Source: a virus
Length of the DNA: 48,341 bases
Strand: one strand, 5' to 3'
IMG/VR virus record: IMGVR_UViG_3300045988_161023
In this document: positions 32,647 through 38,332 of the stretch, one piece after another
Layout of the letters: each line of letters begins with the position of its first letter
Position numbering within the stretch: the first letter of the stretch is position 1
The notes under the pieces: generated by a model
Told to the model about the DNA's origin: nothing
Database searches by the model: none
The model's input: only the letters and a program-made list of their open reading frames with translations
Position numbers and translations under genes: made by a program

Positions 32647-33246
32647 ATGGCTACCTACATCAAATTTCTGGCAGGGGACTACGGGAAAGAAGAATATATT
32701 TACATTAAAAATAAAAACCAGTTGCGTTGCTCTTCAAAAATGTTTGGAGCAAAGGAACTTTTTCTTTCCAGTATTGCCTCTTGCGAAGTAGCCAATGAAG
32801 AATCGGTCAAAAAGCTCGGCGGAACTTTGGGAGGCGCACTTGTCGGCGGCGTCTTGCTTGGAGGCATCGGAGCGGTTGCGGGTGCGGTAGCTGGAGGCAA
32901 GACGACTGAGTCTACCGTCATTATTGAGTTCAAAAATGGAAATAAGGCATTGGCAAAGGTGAATAGCCCCATGATGGAGGTTATCCGCGCACACCTTTTT
33001 GATGACCAATTGGCCCAAGAGCGTGGAGAACCAAACCCGCTTATACATCATGAACGTTCTCAGACGCCCCCTAAAAAAATTGCCCTTATCATTGGAGTGC
33101 TGATAACAGTAGTGCTAGCCGTATTGTGGCTGAGTTGTGCCCTCCAAACGCCGCCCAATACGAATGGGGCCTTGTTATGGGGAATCCTCACTATCCTTTC
33201 CGGACTGTATTCTTGGAAAACCTATAAGAAAATATATAAATCTTAA
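32647..33246 (+). CDS. Glycine-zipper membrane protein (moron)
   Basis: LGGTLGGALVGGVLLGGIGAVAGAVAGG glycine zipper, then two C-terminal TM helices (IALIIGVLITVVLAVLWL and LLWGILTILSGLY). GC about 44%. Transcribed opposite to the flanking late genes. Confidence 0.6.
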   Translation: MATYIKFLAGDYGKEEYIYIKNKNQLRCSSKMFGAKELFLSSIASCEVANEESVKKLGGTLGGALVGGVLLGGIGAVAGAVAGGKTTESTVIIEFKNGNKALAKVNSPMMEVIRAHLFDDQLAQERGEPNPLIHHERSQTPPKKIALIIGVLITVVLAVLWLSCALQTPPNTNGALLWGILTILSGLYSWKTYKKIYKS

Positions 33247-33281
33247 TATATTAACTTGAATCCGAACAGGGAGAGAGGACC

Positions 33282-34352
33282 ATGGATTTTTCGGAAAGAA
33301 TTGCTGAATTGTCGAAAAAGGTAAAGAATCTGGGAGATAGCCTCAAGACCGAAGAGGCCACGAAAAACGCCTTGGTGATGCCTTTCATCGCGGCCCTGGG
33401 ATACGACGTTTTCAACCCTGCGGAAGTCGTGCCCGAATTTTCAGCCCCCATCGGCGAATATAAGGACGCCCGCGTGGACTATGCGATTCTTGTGGACGGC
33501 AAGCCTATCCTTCTTCTGGAGTGCAAGGCTTTGGGCACGTCTCTCGACATGAAGCACTGCAACCAGCTACAGCTTTACTTCCACGGGACGGAAGCCCCCA
33601 TTGCCATCCTGACGGACGGCAACCGTTACCGGTTCTATTCCGATCTTGAAACAGCCAACAAAATGGACAGCAAGCCCTATATGGAGTTCGTCCTTGACGA
33701 TATGGATGAAATGTTGCTCCCGGAACTGCGCAAGTTGGCAAAAGGCAAGTTTGATCGGGATGCCTGCATGAGCGCGGCAAACGAACTCAAGTACAACCGA
33801 GAGTTCAAACGCCTCATGTCCGAACAAATGGAAACGCCCCACGAAGATTTCGCACGCTTTTTCATCGGACAGACGTATGATGGGCGTATCACGCAAAACG
33901 TTCTGGATCGCTTCACTCCAATCCTTACCGCTGCGCTTGACCAGTTCATCAACGACCGCATCAACGACCGATTGAAAAATGCCATGACGCAGCAGAAACC
34001 GGAAATTGTAGAGATAGAGTCCGAAGATACCCCACAAGGAAAAGAGCAGGATTCGCGTATAGTCACCACCGAGGAAGAAAAAGAGGCGTATTACCTTGTC
34101 AAATCGCTTCTGATGGGCACCGTTGATCCGGGGCGCGTAGCCATGCGGGACAGCATCAGCTACTGCTCCATCCTTCTTGACGACAACAGGCTCAAGCCTC
34201 TGTGCCGCCTGTATTTCAACGGAAAACAGTGGAGGGTCGGACTGTTTGATGGGGAGAATAAGGACGCAAAGGAAGACATCGAAAAACTGGAAGATATTAT
34301 CCCCTTTGCGGATCGAATCCGGGCTACGGCCTTGAAATACGATAACAAGTAA
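33282..34352 (+). CDS. HsdR-N (type I restriction enzyme R-subunit N-terminal, PD-(D/E)xK) domain protein
   Basis: TEEATKNALVMPFIAALGYDVFNPAEVVPEF...ARVDYAILVDGKPILLLECKALGTSL matches the HSDR_N nuclease-fold core (D...E.K). It has no helicase or other fused domain. Confidence 0.65.
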   Translation: MDFSERIAELSKKVKNLGDSLKTEEATKNALVMPFIAALGYDVFNPAEVVPEFSAPIGEYKDARVDYAILVDGKPILLLECKALGTSLDMKHCNQLQLYFHGTEAPIAILTDGNRYRFYSDLETANKMDSKPYMEFVLDDMDEMLLPELRKLAKGKFDRDACMSAANELKYNREFKRLMSEQMETPHEDFARFFIGQTYDGRITQNVLDRFTPILTAALDQFINDRINDRLKNAMTQQKPEIVEIESEDTPQGKEQDSRIVTTEEEKEAYYLVKSLLMGTVDPGRVAMRDSISYCSILLDDNRLKPLCRLYFNGKQWRVGLFDGENKDAKEDIEKLEDIIPFADRIRATALKYDNK

Positions 34353-34363
34353 AACTTTCCAAC

Positions 34364-34500
34364 GTGGCGTTGTCCGCCAATGCAGATGAATAACATCCAG
34401 ATGCGGGCAACGCCACTGCTTTTCTCTTTACATTTTTCGCGTTTTGTGCTGTCTTTTTTCTACGGTGCTCATCACACCAACAGTAGGCGGACAACGCCAC
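34364..34500. repeat. Perfect 15-bp inverted repeat pair (GTGGCGTTGTCCGCC ... GGCGGACAACGCCAC) flanking a T-rich 107-bp spacer
   Basis: A third partial copy GCGGGCAACGCCAC lies at 34402. A further 12-bp inverted repeat, GATGCCGGGTGT / ACACCCGGCATC, lies at 34575 and 34657. Confidence 0.4.
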
Positions 34501-36690: not shown

Positions 36691-38065
36691 GATAGACATC
36701 GACGATCTTATCGATTTCAGTTCAAAGCTGGTGAACTCGAATTCCAGCATCGGTATTCGCTTGTCGTCGGGTGCCGCGCTCTCCCTTCCGTACCTGTCCA
36801 CGAGGACATGTCTTGCGGCAGGGATTTCTATGCCGCTGGATACGGCAAATGGGGCCAAGGATGTGGGAAAAGTAAGTGCTCTATACAAAACACTCGAAGA
36901 GGGGGAGGAAGGAGAGAAAGCAGATACAGAGGCGGCATTGAAGAAAATCCGTAAAACAGGATTTGCTAGAAAAACAGAGTCTGTCGACAGACGGATTCGT
37001 CAACTGCTCATCCCTAAAGACGTACCCTCTGGGTATGTCTCTTTGTCTCCCCTCCCCTCCATTGGACTTTCCGTTTTGCTGTTAGGAGCCGTTACAAGGC
37101 ATAATCAAGATGTCTTTTCAAAAAAGAAGGAAGGTATCAAAATTCGACGGGCACATCTCGCTTTGGGCGGGGCAAACCCTCAGAATCTAGGATACGCTGC
37201 GTCCAAAAAGGCGATACAATATCCTATTTTTCTTTCTACACCCAAATCCGTGCGCGGAAATGCCAGCCGTCAGGCGTCAGGAAAGGGAACTTACCTGATC
37301 CTTTCCAATCTCTTTGTGCAAACGGCAAACATCTTGACGAATTATACTATGCTCAACGGCGCGCCCCTCTTTGCAGCATGGGGGATGGGACATGCACTGG
37401 AGCGCGAGATGCATGGTCCCAAAGTTACCGGAGTATGCCTTGTTGTGCATAGCATCGAACCCCTTGGGGAGCATGAAACCGCTATTTTCGAGCCTAGCCA
37501 AAGATTAGGAGCGGCTTTTACTTTTGAAAAATCCCGTAACGGGAGCGACTACGCAAAAGGCTCCACACATCTCTCTTTGCAGCCCGGTGCAACGGGGCAT
37601 ATACGGGTAAGCCTTATCTTTGAACTGTCGGAAGCCCTGCATTCCATACCGAACGCCGTGGATCTTTTCTTGAACTTCGGAAAGTTCTCCGGTGGGCTGA
37701 TCACTTCATACGACGCCCCGGCTTTGCATGATGACCGCTCTACGCTTCTAGAGTGCATTCCCACCGGGAAAGTTGTTTTGGATCGGCGCGACGTTATGAG
37801 CCCTGGAAACCCCATTGAACAGCTTGTAACCGCGATAGGAACGTACAGCGGAAAATGGCTGTCCGCAACGAATATCGGTTTTTCAGCAATCACAGACTTT
37901 CAAGTTCGCGGAGGGGCACGGAACGGGTGCCTCCATGCTTTTGCGGAGCCGCTGATCGGCATTACAGAATACGTCTCTACTGAAAAGAGGGTGAAAGGCT
38001 ATTTCTGGCGCAGCCAGTGGGAAGAAGATAGCTTTTTGATGAGGGGAGATTCAACAAATGAATGA
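36674..38065 (+). CDS. Large hypothetical protein (463 aa), family not recognised
   Basis: Overlaps the upstream stop (coupled). GC about 50%. No motif recognised for ATPase, nuclease, TIR, SIR2, HEPN or RT. Confidence 0.55.
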   Translation: MKRKTKIDIDDLIDFSSKLVNSNSSIGIRLSSGAALSLPYLSTRTCLAAGISMPLDTANGAKDVGKVSALYKTLEEGEEGEKADTEAALKKIRKTGFARKTESVDRRIRQLLIPKDVPSGYVSLSPLPSIGLSVLLLGAVTRHNQDVFSKKKEGIKIRRAHLALGGANPQNLGYAASKKAIQYPIFLSTPKSVRGNASRQASGKGTYLILSNLFVQTANILTNYTMLNGAPLFAAWGMGHALEREMHGPKVTGVCLVVHSIEPLGEHETAIFEPSQRLGAAFTFEKSRNGSDYAKGSTHLSLQPGATGHIRVSLIFELSEALHSIPNAVDLFLNFGKFSGGLITSYDAPALHDDRSTLLECIPTGKVVLDRRDVMSPGNPIEQLVTAIGTYSGKWLSATNIGFSAITDFQVRGGARNGCLHAFAEPLIGITEYVSTEKRVKGYFWRSQWEEDSFLMRGDSTNE

Positions 38066-38279
38066 TGCACAAGAAAAAAAGCAGGGTGGACGCCGTAAAG
38101 GATCTGGACGTAAAAAAAAGGTTGAAAATCGTGCAACAGTAAAGACTGTATCTATGCCGGCTCATGTCTGGGAACGGCTGAACGATGTATGTACGGATAG
38201 GGGTATCCTACGCTCACAGGTAGTACGGGAAGCAGTCGAGATGTGGCTGGACGCAAATATACAGCAGCTTGGAAAATGA
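38058..38279 (+). CDS. Ribbon-helix-helix (CopG/MetJ-like) DNA-binding protein
   Basis: ATGA-type overlap with the 463-aa gene. ATVKTVSMPAHVWERLNDVCTDRGILRSQVVREAVEMWL is a typical RHH beta-strand plus two helices. It has a basic N-terminal tail. Confidence 0.6.
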   Translation: MNDAQEKKQGGRRKGSGRKKKVENRATVKTVSMPAHVWERLNDVCTDRGILRSQVVREAVEMWLDANIQQLGK

Positions 38280-38297
38280 CGCCTGACTATGTAAAGA

Positions 38298-38332
38298 AAG
38301 CCCCAACCGTTAAACAGGCGGTTGGGGCTTTC
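38298..38332. terminator. Bidirectional terminator between the moron operon and the capsid gene
   Basis: AGCCCCAACCGttaaacagGCGGTTGGGGCT with T-rich flanks on both strands. Confidence 0.6.

What the first reader, a model, noticed from the sequence alone, without database searches (positions are those of the whole stretch)
32647..38332. Seven-gene, lower-GC, opposite-strand island inserted between late operons
A 5.7-kb block on the plus strand interrupts the minus-strand late region between the antirepressor and the capsid gene. GC is roughly 44-50% against more than 60% elsewhere, and the block carries its own terminators (36028-36063 and 38298-38332). None of its genes is a virion component. 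The boundary at 34364-34700 is rich in perfect inverted repeats (15-bp and 12-bp pairs). This looks like an accessory or defence hotspot of the kind described in P2-like and lambdoid prophages.
Basis: partly seen in the sequence, partly recalled or inferred. Interest (0 to 1): 0.7.

Follow-up and report, generated by a model that had tools for sequence, protein, structure and literature searches.

The report
Phage anti-CRISPR cassette with stolen Cas genes
The low-GC block is the cargo of a highly variable slot in a gut Bilophila phage, and one third of it looks like a self-regulated anti-CRISPR operon that includes a truncated, fused copy of two host CRISPR proteins.

Summary
Seven plus-strand genes (32647-38279, GC 50.8%) lie between minus-strand head and tail modules (GC 60-62%).

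In 33 relatives with 71-100% identical capsids, the slot between the capsid gene and the next backbone gene ranges from 50 bp to 7.3 kb, with mosaic cargo. It is a true hotspot. Its left edge is about 31628, so it also contains the minus-strand Bro-N gene.

The cargo is not shown to be defence. Region 36108-38332 is a three-gene operon:
- an AcrIF11-family ADP-ribosyltransferase (NCBIfam 100.9 bits, cutoff 50; catalytic residues kept);
- a 463-aa orphan fusion of the Cas8f N-terminal domain to a full Cas5f, lacking the C-terminal helical bundle that recruits Cas2/3;
- a 73-aa ribbon-helix-helix-like regulator, with a unique AT-rich palindrome over the promoter.

The cassette is 95% identical in an unrelated phage. 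Bilophila type I-F arrays carry CC-PAM spacers against both phage families.

Best reading: an anti-type-I-F operon in which the fusion acts as a defective Cascade subunit. This step is inferred, not shown. A 59%-identical homologue is already catalogued as orphan viral cas hits by Katz et al., uncharacterised. I rate it a new variant of a known kind.

The parts
31669..32625 (-). Bro-N antirepressor-like gene. It is part of the variable slot, not of the backbone. The true start is probably downstream of the first ATG.
   Evidence: Pfam Bro-N 1e-21 and PHROG anti-repressor. The gene is absent where the capsid gene abuts the backbone gene (L043/44/49/51). Relatives aa.
32647..33246 (+). g1, 199 aa, a glycine-zipper/membrane-type protein of unknown function.
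   Evidence: phrog_20920. PF27000 PH_gly_zipper is precomputed on identical products in L002-L007. It is replaced by other genes in L001, L012 and L021.
33282..34352 (+). g2, 356 aa, a stand-alone HSDR_N (PD-(D/E)xK-type) endonuclease-like protein.
   Evidence: Pfam HSDR_N 3e-13; phrog_4225 'endonuclease' 2e-114. A 76%-identical copy sits in the slot of relatives with 71%-identical capsids (L045, L047).
34353..34703 (+). Structured intergenic module junction. It contains hairpin 34364-34416 followed by a T-rich run (probable g1-g2 terminator), terminator-like hairpin 34531-34560, and the 12-nt inverted repeat 34585-34596/34655-34666 upstream of g4.
   Evidence: RNA fold z = -6.7. Similarity to relatives breaks at about 34403-34426 in L001, L011, L021 and L039.
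34710..35639 (+). g4, a Bro-N antirepressor-like protein. ATG 34710 follows GGAG; the mechanical ORF start is TTG 34704.
   Evidence: Pfam Bro-N 3e-11; PHROG anti-repressor 3e-40.
35656..36006 (+). g5, a small coiled-coil protein of unknown function.
   Evidence: Weak CCDC90-like match and phrog_17872.
36025..36057 (+). Intrinsic terminator that ends the g4-g5 unit.
   Evidence: A 15-pair stem followed by a T run.
36108..36140 (.). Perfect AT-rich palindrome TTTTTTGAAAAAAT-N5-ATTTTTTCAAAAAA. It overlaps the -35/spacer of the operon promoter (extended -10 TGcTATTGT at 36144-36152) and is the candidate operator of g8.
   Evidence: (I6). This is the only such site in the window, against 0.49 expected. 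It is conserved upstream of the cassette in L002 and L023, even where the upstream neighbour differs.
36187..36690 (+). g6, 167 aa, an AcrIF11-family anti-CRISPR ADP-ribosyltransferase. ATG 36187 follows AAGGAG.
   Evidence: NCBIfam NF052490 at 100.9 bits against a cutoff of 50, E 1e-28. PDB 8DWQ (AcrIF11Pae2) E 7e-7 over the full length and 6KYF E 1e-4. H5, Y34, D141 and E142 align with the residues H20, Y46, D146 and E147 that are required for activity. PF26151 is precomputed on the 166-aa homologues in L001-L008.
36674..38065 (+). g7, 463 aa, an orphan fusion. The Cas8f N-terminal domain (aa 1-191, nt 36674-37246) includes the PAM loop GGANPQN (aa 165-171, nt 37166-37186). A linker follows (aa 192-205), then a full Cas5f (aa 206-463). 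The Cas8f helical bundle is missing.
   Evidence: PADLOC Cas8f 1e-20 (aa 10-193) and Cas5f 1e-21 (aa 208-453). BLASTP to Bilophila-type Cas8f residues 41-275 of 453 and Cas5f residues 2-273 of 278. Alignment A3. Profile hit to Csy1 GGTKPQN. Foldseek matches to Cas5f chains with TM about 0.7. dN/dS 0.1-0.25 in both halves. No other cas gene in the window.
38058..38279 (+). g8, 73 aa, with a basic tail followed by a ribbon-helix-helix-like domain. It is the candidate autorepressor (Aca-type) of the operon.
   Evidence: Its start overlaps the end of g7. phrog_876 repressor 2e-4. CopG PDB 7BY2 E 0.046. The AF2 model shows an extended segment plus two helices, and its Foldseek hits are almost all RHH proteins but not significant. 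It is retained when the upstream cargo changes (L022, L023, L039).
38296..38332 (.). Perfect 14-bp hairpin between the convergent g8 and capsid genes. It is shared by all slot variants and serves as a terminator.
   Evidence: (I7). The same hairpin follows the mini-CRISPR array in L040/L041 and the L016-type variant.
26084..26115 (+). Protospacer with a 5'-CC PAM inside the tape-measure gene. It matches a spacer of a Bilophila type I-F array with 5 mismatches here and 2 in sister phages.

Best explanation
The window is a complete temperate Bilophila phage genome. Between its head module and its neck/tail module lies a recombination-prone cargo slot, window about 31628-38352.

The capsid-proximal third of the cargo (36108-38332) is an autoregulated anti-CRISPR operon aimed at the host's type I-F system. 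A promoter overlapped by an AT-rich palindrome drives three translationally coupled genes.

1. g6 is an AcrIF11-family ADP-ribosyltransferase. By analogy with AcrIF11, it would ADP-ribosylate the PAM-reading asparagine of host Cas8f and so stop target DNA binding.

2. g7 is a Cas8f(N-terminal domain)-Cas5f fusion. I infer that it takes the place of the host Cas8f-Cas5f 'tail' heterodimer on the crRNA 5' handle and the Cas7f backbone. Because it lacks the Cas8f C-terminal helical bundle that recruits Cas2/3, the resulting complexes could not trigger cleavage or priming.

3. g8 is a small ribbon-helix-helix protein. It would bind the palindrome and shut the operon down after the early burst.

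Shown here: the family assignments, the domain boundaries, the orphan status, purifying selection, mobility of the cassette, slot variability, and host I-F spacers against these phages. Inferred: that g7 inhibits CRISPR at all, the defective-subunit mechanism, and the g8-operator interaction. The left-hand genes g1-g5 are ordinary phage accessory genes of unknown role.

My confidence differs by sub-claim: about 0.95 that this is a variable cargo slot, about 0.85 that 36108-38332 is an anti-type-I-F operon, and about 0.5 that g7 works as a defective Cascade subunit.
For: Slot variability. The slot is 50 bp to 7.3 kb long in 33 relatives, with mosaic cargo.

The phage. It is temperate and complete: integrase, CI-like repressor and replication genes are present, and the window wraps onto itself.

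g6. It passes the curated AcrIF11 equivalog cutoff. It aligns over its full length to AcrIF11Pae2, with all four residues required for activity kept.

g7. The two halves match Cas8f and Cas5f profiles. They match Bilophila-type Cas8f at 30-40% identity and Cas5f at 41-42%. The Cas8f part stops at the conserved ..RPxxxSAP boundary shared by all real Cas8f. It keeps every invariant column of the N-terminal domain, including the GGxNPQN loop that aligns with P. aeruginosa K247/N250. The Cas5f core motifs are kept, and the Cas5f fold is recovered. dN/dS is 0.1-0.25 in both halves but about 1 in the linker. There are no cas7f, cas6f, cas1 or cas2/3 genes and no CRISPR repeat in the window. Among 1.84 billion representative proteins, no other listed protein matches both halves.

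Operon logic. The gene overlaps are 17 nt and 8 nt. The palindrome occurs only at this promoter. The same promoter and g8 frame other cargo in L039, or g6 alone in L022/L023. GNAT and 56-aa genes are inserted after the promoter in L002-L007.

Mobility. Region 36171-38346 is 95% identical in an unrelated siphovirus-like phage (L005/L008). A 60%-identical fusion sits there without any AcrIF11 gene in L058.

Arms race. A Bilophila sp. genome (L076) has a type I-F locus whose array holds adjacent spacers matching both phage families with CC PAMs, 2-5 mismatches. Sister phages carry a type I-F mini-array in the same slot position.

Precedent. AcrIB3 (a Cas5 homologue, 38% identical) and AcrIB4 (a Cas8b C-terminal-domain homologue) integrate into or act on Cascade as defective parts (bioRxiv 10.1101/2023.06.24.545427; PMC13131331). 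An RHH Aca, Aca14, represses acr operons through AT-rich inverted repeats (PMC13551039).
Against: No experiment has been done, so inhibition by g7 is inferred from context and from what the protein lacks.

The N-terminal half of the AF2 model is unreliable (pLDDT below 50). The claim that the helical bundle is missing therefore rests on sequence alignment only.

g7 has been lost by two independent internal deletions while g6 and g8 were kept (L022, L023). It is therefore dispensable or costly in some backgrounds.

A complex without the helical bundle might still bind phage DNA, which would not obviously help the phage unless DNA binding is also impaired.

The RHH assignment of g8 is weak (E 0.046; Foldseek E 0.2 or worse), and similarity to Aca14 itself was not tested.

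The role of the helical bundle in Cas2/3 recruitment comes from my knowledge of P. aeruginosa structures. It was not tested for the Bilophila system.
Confidence: 0.65

Rival explanations
1. Defence hotspot. On this view the cargo protects the lysogen against other phages, for example by superinfection exclusion through the membrane protein g1, DNA cleavage by the HSDR_N nuclease g2, or Bro-N proteins acting on rival repressors.
For: The slot is hypervariable, as in known prophage defence hotspots. g2 has a restriction-type nuclease domain. Many alternative cargo genes in relatives are lipoproteins or zinc-ribbon membrane proteins. Sister phages L040/L041 carry a mini-CRISPR array that could target competitors.
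Against: PADLOC recognises no defence system. The only securely identified module is anti-defence: g6 passes the AcrIF11 equivalog cutoff. No partner methylase or specificity subunit lies next to g2.
Confidence: 0.25
2. Hijack rather than inhibition. On this view the fusion re-tools host Cas7f/Cas6f/crRNA into a nuclease-free, RNA-guided DNA-binding complex that the phage uses itself. Possible uses are silencing of competitors or host genes, or guiding another effector. This would be analogous to the Cas8/Cas5 fusions of type I-F3 transposon systems.
For: The N-terminal domain keeps every invariant residue, including the PAM loop, and is under purifying selection. That suggests DNA recognition is retained. 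Related phages carry type I-F mini-arrays or a solitary repeat next to the fusion gene. Type I-F3 and I-F-HNH Cascades show that I-F complexes can work without Cas2/3 (PDB matches).
Against: The window has no array or repeat. The mini-array and the fusion were not seen in the same genome. No partner effector is evident. The gene sits inside an operon with a bona fide AcrIF11-family gene.
Confidence: 0.1
3. Accessory to the enzyme. On this view g7 is an adaptor, decoy substrate or specificity factor for the AcrIF11-like ADP-ribosyltransferase g6, rather than an independent inhibitor.
For: g6 and g7 overlap by 17 nt. g7 keeps the asparagine (N171) that corresponds to the AcrIF11 target N250.
Against: Each gene occurs without the other. 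g6 and g8 occur alone in L022/L023, and the fusion occurs without any AcrIF11 gene in L058. The gene order also differs in L057/L059. Characterised AcrIF11 proteins act alone (PMC12421852).
Confidence: 0.08
4. Inert relic of captured host DNA. On this view it is a decaying cas8f-cas5f fragment with no function.
For: The gene is annotated simply as Csy2 in public records. It is below the Csy2 equivalog cutoff, 38.6 against 154 bits. It has been deleted twice in relatives.
Against: The reading frame is intact across two phage lineages down to 59% identity. dN/dS is 0.1-0.25 in both halves, against about 1 in the linker. The gene is translationally coupled within an operon. The protein cluster stands for 326 contigs.
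Confidence: 0.03

Closest known systems
Cas-derived anti-CRISPRs AcrIB3 (a Cas5 homologue) and AcrIB4 (a Cas8b C-terminal-domain homologue) of Listeria; 'viral cas genes' of Katz et al. (bioRxiv 10.1101/2023.06.24.545427; Nature 2024)
   Same: It is an orphan homologue of Cascade subunits on a phage, about 40% identical to the host proteins. It forms its own clade, lacks a functional element, and sits in an anti-defence cluster. A 59%-identical homologue in the B. wadsworthia 3_1_6 prophage (L074) is itself listed as cas8f and cas5f hits in their Table S3.
   Different: It targets type I-F rather than I-B. The two subunits are covalently fused. The missing part is the Cas2/3-recruiting helical bundle, not the Cas5 hook. 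It is co-transcribed with an enzymatic Acr. It has not been tested experimentally, and the fusion and truncation are not described in the texts I could read.
AcrIF11 (ADP-ribosyltransferase; PDB 6KYF, 8DWQ; PMC12421852)
   Same: g6 passes the curated family cutoff, keeps the catalytic residues, is phage-borne, and lies in an acr locus.
   Different: It comes from a Desulfovibrionaceae phage and has low identity to the Pseudomonas proteins. In the host Cas8f family, the position equivalent to P. aeruginosa Cas8f K247 is Asn rather than Lys. The target has not been verified.
Aca14, the ribbon-helix-helix anti-CRISPR-associated regulator (PMC13551039)
   Same: It is a small RHH-type protein at the 3' end of acr operons, with an AT-rich inverted repeat over the promoter and variable upstream cargo. 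That paper also notes an operon with AcrIF6 plus a Cas5f homologue.
   Different: Sequence relatedness to Aca14 was not tested. g8's homologues form a narrow family. The RHH fold is only weakly supported.
Type I-F3 (Tn7-like transposon) Cas8/Cas5 fusion proteins
   Same: Cas8f and Cas5f are on one polypeptide in a system that does not use Cas2/3. Weak sequence matches (E 0.002-0.02) and structural matches were found.
   Different: The I-F3 fusions are 630-700 aa, retain the helical bundle, and sit with cas7f, cas6f, an array and tns/tniQ genes. Here none of these is present. The nearest relatives are separate Cas8f and Cas5f of canonical I-F1 loci, so the fusion arose independently.
AcrIF3 (mimic of the Cas8f helical bundle)
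   Same: It attacks the same step, Cas2/3 recruitment through the Cas8f helical bundle.
   Different: The logic is opposite. AcrIF3 supplies a free bundle mimic that occupies Cas2/3, whereas g7 would supply a Cascade tail without the bundle.
Prophage accessory/defence hotspots (P2/P4-type and lambdoid moron slots)
   Same: A fixed position between conserved core genes, an opposite-strand and lower-GC cargo with its own promoters and terminators, and empty sites in relatives.
   Different: The identified cargo is anti-defence. The phage is an E217-like myovirus of Bilophila, and the slot lies between the capsid gene and the neck genes.

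Membership tests
AcrIF11 family (g6) | Score above the curated family threshold | tested here: met
   NCBIfam NF052490 scores 100.9 bits against a cutoff of 50. PF26151 is precomputed on the 166-aa homologues in L001-L008.
AcrIF11 family (g6) | Catalytic/NAD residues (H20, Y46, D146, E147 of AcrIF11Pae2) | tested here: met
   H5, Y34, D141 and E142 align with them. The mutant data are in PMC12421852.
AcrIF11 family (g6) | ADP-ribosylates the PAM-loop Asn of Cas8f and blocks type I-F immunity | not testable with these tools
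   Host-type Cas8f proteins keep the Asn in GG(A/S)NPQN. No biochemistry is available.
acr-aca operon | A known acr gene followed by a small DNA-binding regulator on a mobile element | tested here: met
   The order g6-g7-g8 with overlapping genes on a temperate phage.
acr-aca operon | Inverted-repeat operator overlapping the promoter | tested here: met
   Palindrome 36108-36140 is unique in the window and conserved in L002 and L023. Binding was not tested.
acr-aca operon | Regulator conserved while the upstream cargo varies | tested here: met
   L039 carries a different 373-aa gene, L022/L023 carry g6 only, and L029/L050 add GNAT and 56-aa genes.
Aca14 (RHH Aca) | Ribbon-helix-helix fold | tested here: inconclusive
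   CopG match E 0.046. The AF2 model has pLDDT 62, and its hits are mostly RHH proteins at E 0.2-2.
Aca14 (RHH Aca) | Sequence homology to Aca14 (WP_005725436.1) | not tested
Cas-derived anti-CRISPR (viral cas gene) | Significant homology to an effector-complex subunit | tested here: met
Cas-derived anti-CRISPR (viral cas gene) | Encoded on a virus outside any CRISPR-Cas locus | tested here: met
   No other cas gene or repeat in the window. The flanks are phage genes in all loci.
Cas-derived anti-CRISPR (viral cas gene) | A clade separate from the bona fide Cas proteins | tested here: met
   Identity is at least 59% within the fusion clade and at most 45% to any Cas5f or 44% to any Cas8f. No tree was built.
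Cas-derived anti-CRISPR (viral cas gene) | Lacks an element needed for interference | tested here: met
   About 180 aa of the Cas8f C-terminal domain are absent, on sequence alignment only.
Cas-derived anti-CRISPR (viral cas gene) | Inhibits CRISPR interference, or assembles into a defective complex | not testable with these tools
   This needs genetics or biochemistry.
Type I-F3 CAST Cas8/Cas5 fusion | Neighbouring cas7f, cas6f and a CRISPR array | tested here: not met
   tblastn with Bilophila-type Cas7f, Cas6f, Cas1 and Cas2/3 gives nothing below E 0.03. No repeats were found.
Type I-F3 CAST Cas8/Cas5 fusion | Association with tnsA/B/C and tniQ | tested here: not met
   No such Pfam families occur within 10 kb either side in eight loci. 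The window's other genes tested are phage genes.
Type I-F3 CAST Cas8/Cas5 fusion | Full-length Cas8 part (630-700 aa fusion) | tested here: not met
   The protein is 463 aa, and only the C-terminal 60-80 residues align to Cas85f models or I-F3 chains.
Prophage defence hotspot | Variable cargo at a fixed site between conserved core genes, with empty sites in relatives | tested here: met
Prophage defence hotspot | The cargo encodes recognised anti-phage defence systems | tested here: not met
   PADLOC gives only Cas profiles on g7 and two matches at E about 0.002 on g2.

The most novel reading that the evidence does not exclude
The fusion may not be a simple poison subunit. It may be a phage device that converts the host's type I-F machinery into a nuclease-free, RNA-guided DNA binder working for the phage. 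In some relatives it could act together with the phage-borne mini-array or the solitary repeat. That would be an independent, viral counterpart of the transposon (I-F3) co-option of Cascade.
Probability: 0.1. Interest if true: 0.9.

Novelty: new variant of a known kind. Interest (0 to 1): 0.6.

Why it matters
If the fusion inhibits type I-F immunity, it would be, within the literature I could search, the first characterised Cas-derived anti-CRISPR against type I-F. It would also be a natural experiment showing which part of Cascade can be removed to disarm it: the Cas2/3-recruiting helical bundle.

It comes with its own enzyme partner and regulator, and it exists in natural variants with and without each gene. 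That makes the hypothesis directly testable.

It also documents an active CRISPR/anti-CRISPR arms race in Bilophila, a human gut bacterium for which no phage-host conflict data were found in the literature searched. The evidence is host spacers with PAMs against these phages, and phage-borne type I-F repeats.

Tried and rejected
Searches that found nothing:
- Megablast of 30000-41000 against GenBank phages gave no match.
- Rfam at gathering threshold on the window gave nothing. Rfam at E up to 1 on the island gave only sub-threshold hits on terminator hairpins.
- No type I-F repeat was found in the window at up to 7 mismatches. The four spacers of the L009 array do not match it.
- The fusion was not found in GTDB species-representative genomes.
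- A search for protospacers of the phage mini-array spacers in IMG/VR, exact and with every sixth base free, returned only the arrays themselves.
- No paper combining Bilophila, prophage and anti-CRISPR was found. The published Nature version of Katz et al. is not held.

Searches of limited use:
- A homologue search with the N-terminal 204 aa alone returned only fragments and one split Cas8f.
- The AF2 model of the fusion was too poor in the Cas8f half to use.

Readings considered and rejected:
- Membership in type I-F3 CAST fusions, because defining features were not met.
- That g6 might be Cas6f, which has a similar size. No Cas6f similarity was found, and the gene is AcrIF11-family instead.
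- The 57-aa ORF 34380-34553 as a gene. It has no family hit and lies in hairpins.
- The L022/L023 'g6+g8 only' arrangement as the ancestral state. These loci retain both ends of g7, so they are deletions.

Full report
**1. The observation**

The window has seven plus-strand ORFs between a minus-strand Bro-N gene (31669-32625) and the minus-strand major capsid gene (38353-39366). The island is 50.8% GC. Individual genes range from 45.8% to 59.6%, and GC3 is 0.37-0.68 against 0.81 for the capsid gene. The neighbouring late regions are 60.1% and 61.7% GC.

The early half of the genome (1-20000) is also only 51.7% GC. The contrast is therefore with the structural genes, not with 'everything else'.

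The hairpin at 36025-36057 followed by a T run is a good intrinsic terminator. The feature at 38296-38332 is a perfect 14-bp hairpin whose T tract lies on the capsid strand.

The perfect 15-nt and 12-nt inverted repeats at 34364-34700 are real. The spacer folds far better than shuffles, with z = -6.7. No product hits a virion family.

**2. The phage and the slot**

The window is a complete, circularly permuted temperate phage genome. A related 50.8-kb contig runs off window position 48341 and continues at position 1. The window encodes an integrase, a CI-like repressor, a replication initiator, a RecE-like exonuclease and a DNA methyltransferase. The structural genes are E217-like.

Forty-five IMG/VR loci encode a relative of the capsid protein. 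I measured the distance from the capsid gene to the next backbone gene (window 31190-31627) in the 33 loci that contain both. It ranges from 50 bp to 7264 bp.

- In relatives with 88%-identical capsids, the two backbone genes abut (L043/44/49/51).
- In some relatives with 99%-identical capsids, only the minus-strand Bro-N gene is present (L018, L026, L033).
- The others hold at least a dozen different gene combinations.

It also moves the left boundary to about 31628. Similarity breakpoints recur at about 34403-34426, next to the hairpin after g2. They also recur at 36171-36179 in the ribosome-binding region ahead of g6.

**3. The cargo**

The five left-hand and middle genes are:
- g1, a glycine-zipper protein;
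- g2, a stand-alone HSDR_N nuclease-like protein;
- g4, a Bro-N protein;
- g5, a small coiled-coil protein.

PADLOC recognises no defence system among them. The last three genes form a separate unit behind the 36025-36057 terminator.

**4. The operon at 36108-38332**

A perfect AT-rich palindrome (36108-36140) overlaps the promoter region. It is the only such site in the window, against 0.49 expected by chance.

*g6 (36187-36690).* It scores 100.9 bits on NCBI's AcrIF11 equivalog model, whose cutoff is 50. It aligns end to end with AcrIF11Pae2 (PDB 8DWQ, E 7e-7). H5, Y34, D141 and E142 align with residues whose mutation abolishes ADP-ribosylation and anti-CRISPR activity (PMC12421852).

*g7 (36674-38065).* It overlaps g6 by 17 nt.
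- Residues 10-193 match Cas8f profiles (E 1e-20) and residues 207-457 match Cas5f profiles (E 1e-21).
- The best pairwise relatives are the separate Cas8f and Cas5f of canonical I-F1 loci. Cas8f residues 41-275 of 453, or 43-236 of 417, align at 30-40% identity. Cas5f residues 2-273 of 278 align at 41%.
- In an alignment with five full-length Cas8f proteins, the fusion keeps every invariant position of the N-terminal domain. It ends just after the conserved ...RPxxxSAP motif. The following roughly 180 residues of real Cas8f are absent.
- A profile of that alignment hits a solved Csy1 chain. It places the fusion's GGANPQN (residues 165-171) on GGTKPQN, the loop holding K247 and N250 of P. aeruginosa Cas8f. 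N250 is the residue that AcrIF11 modifies (PMC13131331).
- The missing segment corresponds to the C-terminal helical bundle. From my knowledge of the P. aeruginosa structures, that bundle is the element that recruits Cas2/3 and that AcrIF3 mimics. The mimicry is also stated in the Katz preprint.
- The AF2 model is reliable only in the Cas5f half, which matches Cas5f chains with TM about 0.7.

*g8 (38058-38279).* It overlaps g7 by 8 nt. It has a basic tail followed by a pattern of extended segment, helix, helix. There is a weak CopG match (E 0.046), and its Foldseek neighbours are nearly all ribbon-helix-helix (RHH) proteins but not significant.

**5. The fusion is orphan, functional and mobile**

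No other cas gene and no CRISPR repeat is present in the window. The nearly identical protein stands for 326 contigs and is named Csy2 of Bilophila wadsworthia by NCBI.

Full-length relatives go down to 59% identity. Nothing else among 1.84 billion representatives matches both halves in the best 150 hits. The best separate Cas5f is 45% identical and the best Cas8f 44%.

dN/dS is 0.10-0.25 in each half and about 1 in the 14-residue linker. Eleven IMG/VR contigs carry the fusion. No GTDB species-representative genome does.

The block 36171-38346 is 95% identical in a siphovirus-like phage with otherwise unrelated flanks (L005, L008).

The two genes also occur apart.
- L022 and L023 have lost g7 by two different internal deletions while keeping g6 and g8.
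- L058 has a 60%-identical fusion with no AcrIF11 gene.
- L057 and L059 have the genes in another order.
- In L039 the same promoter and g8 frame an unrelated 373-aa gene.
- Most sister phages carry a GNAT acetyltransferase gene and a 56-aa gene between the promoter and g6. These two genes are precisely absent from the window.

**6. The host system**

The closest real Cas5f lies in a complete I-F1 locus with a small array (L009). That locus's DnaB is in the same 90% cluster as Bilophila sp. proteins.

A genome titled 'Uncultured Bilophila sp. MGYG-HGUT-01277' has a related locus (L076). Its array contains two adjacent spacers of interest.
- One matches the siphovirus-like family with 2-4 mismatches.
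- The other matches the window's family with 2-5 mismatches. In the window itself the match is at 26084-26115, in the tape-measure gene, with 5 mismatches.

Each protospacer is preceded by CC, the type I-F PAM. By my estimate, a 27-of-32 match in this window over 116 spacers is expected about 3e-5 times by chance. The host genus therefore uses type I-F immunity against exactly these phages.

**7. Mechanism**

The most economical reading is an autoregulated anti-I-F operon.
- g6 would disable PAM reading by ADP-ribosylation, which is the established activity of the family.
- g7 would compete with the Cas8f-Cas5f heterodimer for the crRNA 5' handle and the Cas7f filament. It would yield complexes without the bundle that calls in Cas2/3.
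- g8 would repress the promoter through the palindrome, as Aca proteins do, including the RHH protein Aca14 (PMC13551039).

The g7 step is inference. It rests on the domain anatomy, the operon context, and the precedent of AcrIB3 and AcrIB4.

I considered four rivals: a defence role for the island, a hijack of Cascade for the phage's own guidance, an adaptor role for the enzyme, and an inert relic. The independent occurrence of g6 and g7 argues against the adaptor model. Purifying selection argues against the relic.

**8. Comparison with what is known**

The concept of viral cas genes acting as anti-CRISPRs is published. Table S3 of the Katz et al. preprint lists cas8f (16736-17317) and cas5f (17348-18115) hits on the B. 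wadsworthia 3_1_6 prophage. That is the contig of L074, whose fusion is 59% identical to g7.

I found no description of the protein as a fusion lacking the helical bundle. I also found no description of its AcrIF11/RHH operon, of the hotspot, or of host spacers, and no functional test.

It is not a type I-F3 fusion. Neighbouring cas7f and cas6f, an array, transposition genes and a full-length Cas8 part are all missing.

**9. Verdict**

'Hotspot' is supported and 'defence' is not. The interesting content is a candidate type I-F anti-CRISPR operon with a Cas8f-Cas5f fusion lacking the helical bundle. This is a new variant of a known kind, already catalogued in a supplementary table but uncharacterised.

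Noticed in passing
L040 9614-9761 and L041 11102-11249 (minus strand of the locus, which is the island orientation): Two sister phages (capsid 96-97% identical) carry a mini-CRISPR array in the same slot position as the window's acr operon, just upstream of the shared terminator. It has three type I-F repeats (GTTATCCGCCGTGTAGGCGGTTTAGAGG) and two 32-nt spacers. No protospacer was found in IMG/VR or in the held loci.
   Followed up: partly
L057 5877-5904, L058 3134-3161, L059 5707-5734, L074 4889-4916 (strand opposite to the fusion gene): A solitary type I-F repeat-like unit (CTTATCCGCCGCGTAGGTGGTTTAGAAG) lies about 100 nt upstream of the 60%-identical fusion gene in the second phage family. 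It could be an RNA anti-CRISPR candidate or an array remnant. None is present in the window.
   Followed up: partly
window 26084-26115 (+), inside the tape-measure gene 24862-26670 (-): A protospacer with a CC PAM matches a spacer of the type I-F array of Uncultured Bilophila sp. MGYG-HGUT-01277 (L076). It has 5 mismatches here and 2 in L013/L021. The neighbouring spacer in the same array hits the other fusion-carrying phage family.
   Followed up: yes
L002 8947-9494 (also L001, L003-L008, L029, L050); absent from the window at 36171-36179: Most sister phages have a 118-aa GNAT acetyltransferase gene and a 56-aa gene between the acr promoter and the AcrIF11-like gene. The window lacks exactly these 561 bp. 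A GNAT in an acr operon recalls the acetyltransferase AcrVA5.
   Followed up: partly
L039 slot (between g5 and the RHH gene): The same promoter region and the same RHH gene frame a different 373-389-aa protein with no Pfam match. It is an untested anti-defence candidate by position.
   Followed up: partly
L022 and L023, corresponding to window 36739-37994 and 36713-37965: Two independent internal deletions remove nearly the whole fusion gene but keep the AcrIF11-like and RHH genes.
   Followed up: yes
L016 about 11200-11300 (capsid strand); a similar peptide in L040 about 9900-9990: Slot variants without the acr cassette have about 430 nt without a long ORF. They contain a 27-28-aa hydrophobic peptide ORF behind a strong Shine-Dalgarno sequence (MRHFLRDVAVQVIGGVIVAVVIRFMLNQ), which resembles a type I toxin.
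   Followed up: no
window 34353-34703: A strongly structured 351-nt intergenic region (z = -6.7) coincides with a recurrent similarity breakpoint between cargo modules. It has no Rfam match. Whether it is more than stacked terminators or a 5' leader of the Bro-N gene is open.
   Followed up: partly
window 6501-7500: This is the most AT-rich kilobase of the window (GC 0.30). It overlaps a 293-aa ORF of unknown function (6411-7292, phrog_11747) next to the CI-like repressor gene, and may be another accessory insertion.
   Followed up: no
window ends (48341 continuing at 1): A related contig aligns across the window's end into its start. The window is therefore a complete, circularly permuted phage genome of about 48.3 kb.
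   Followed up: partly
L061 3527-4693: A Cas8f next to a split cas2/3 is called as two ORFs (207 aa and 161 aa). They break at the same boundary between the N-terminal domain and the helical bundle at which the viral fusion ends. This is probably a frameshift or a natural split.
   Followed up: no
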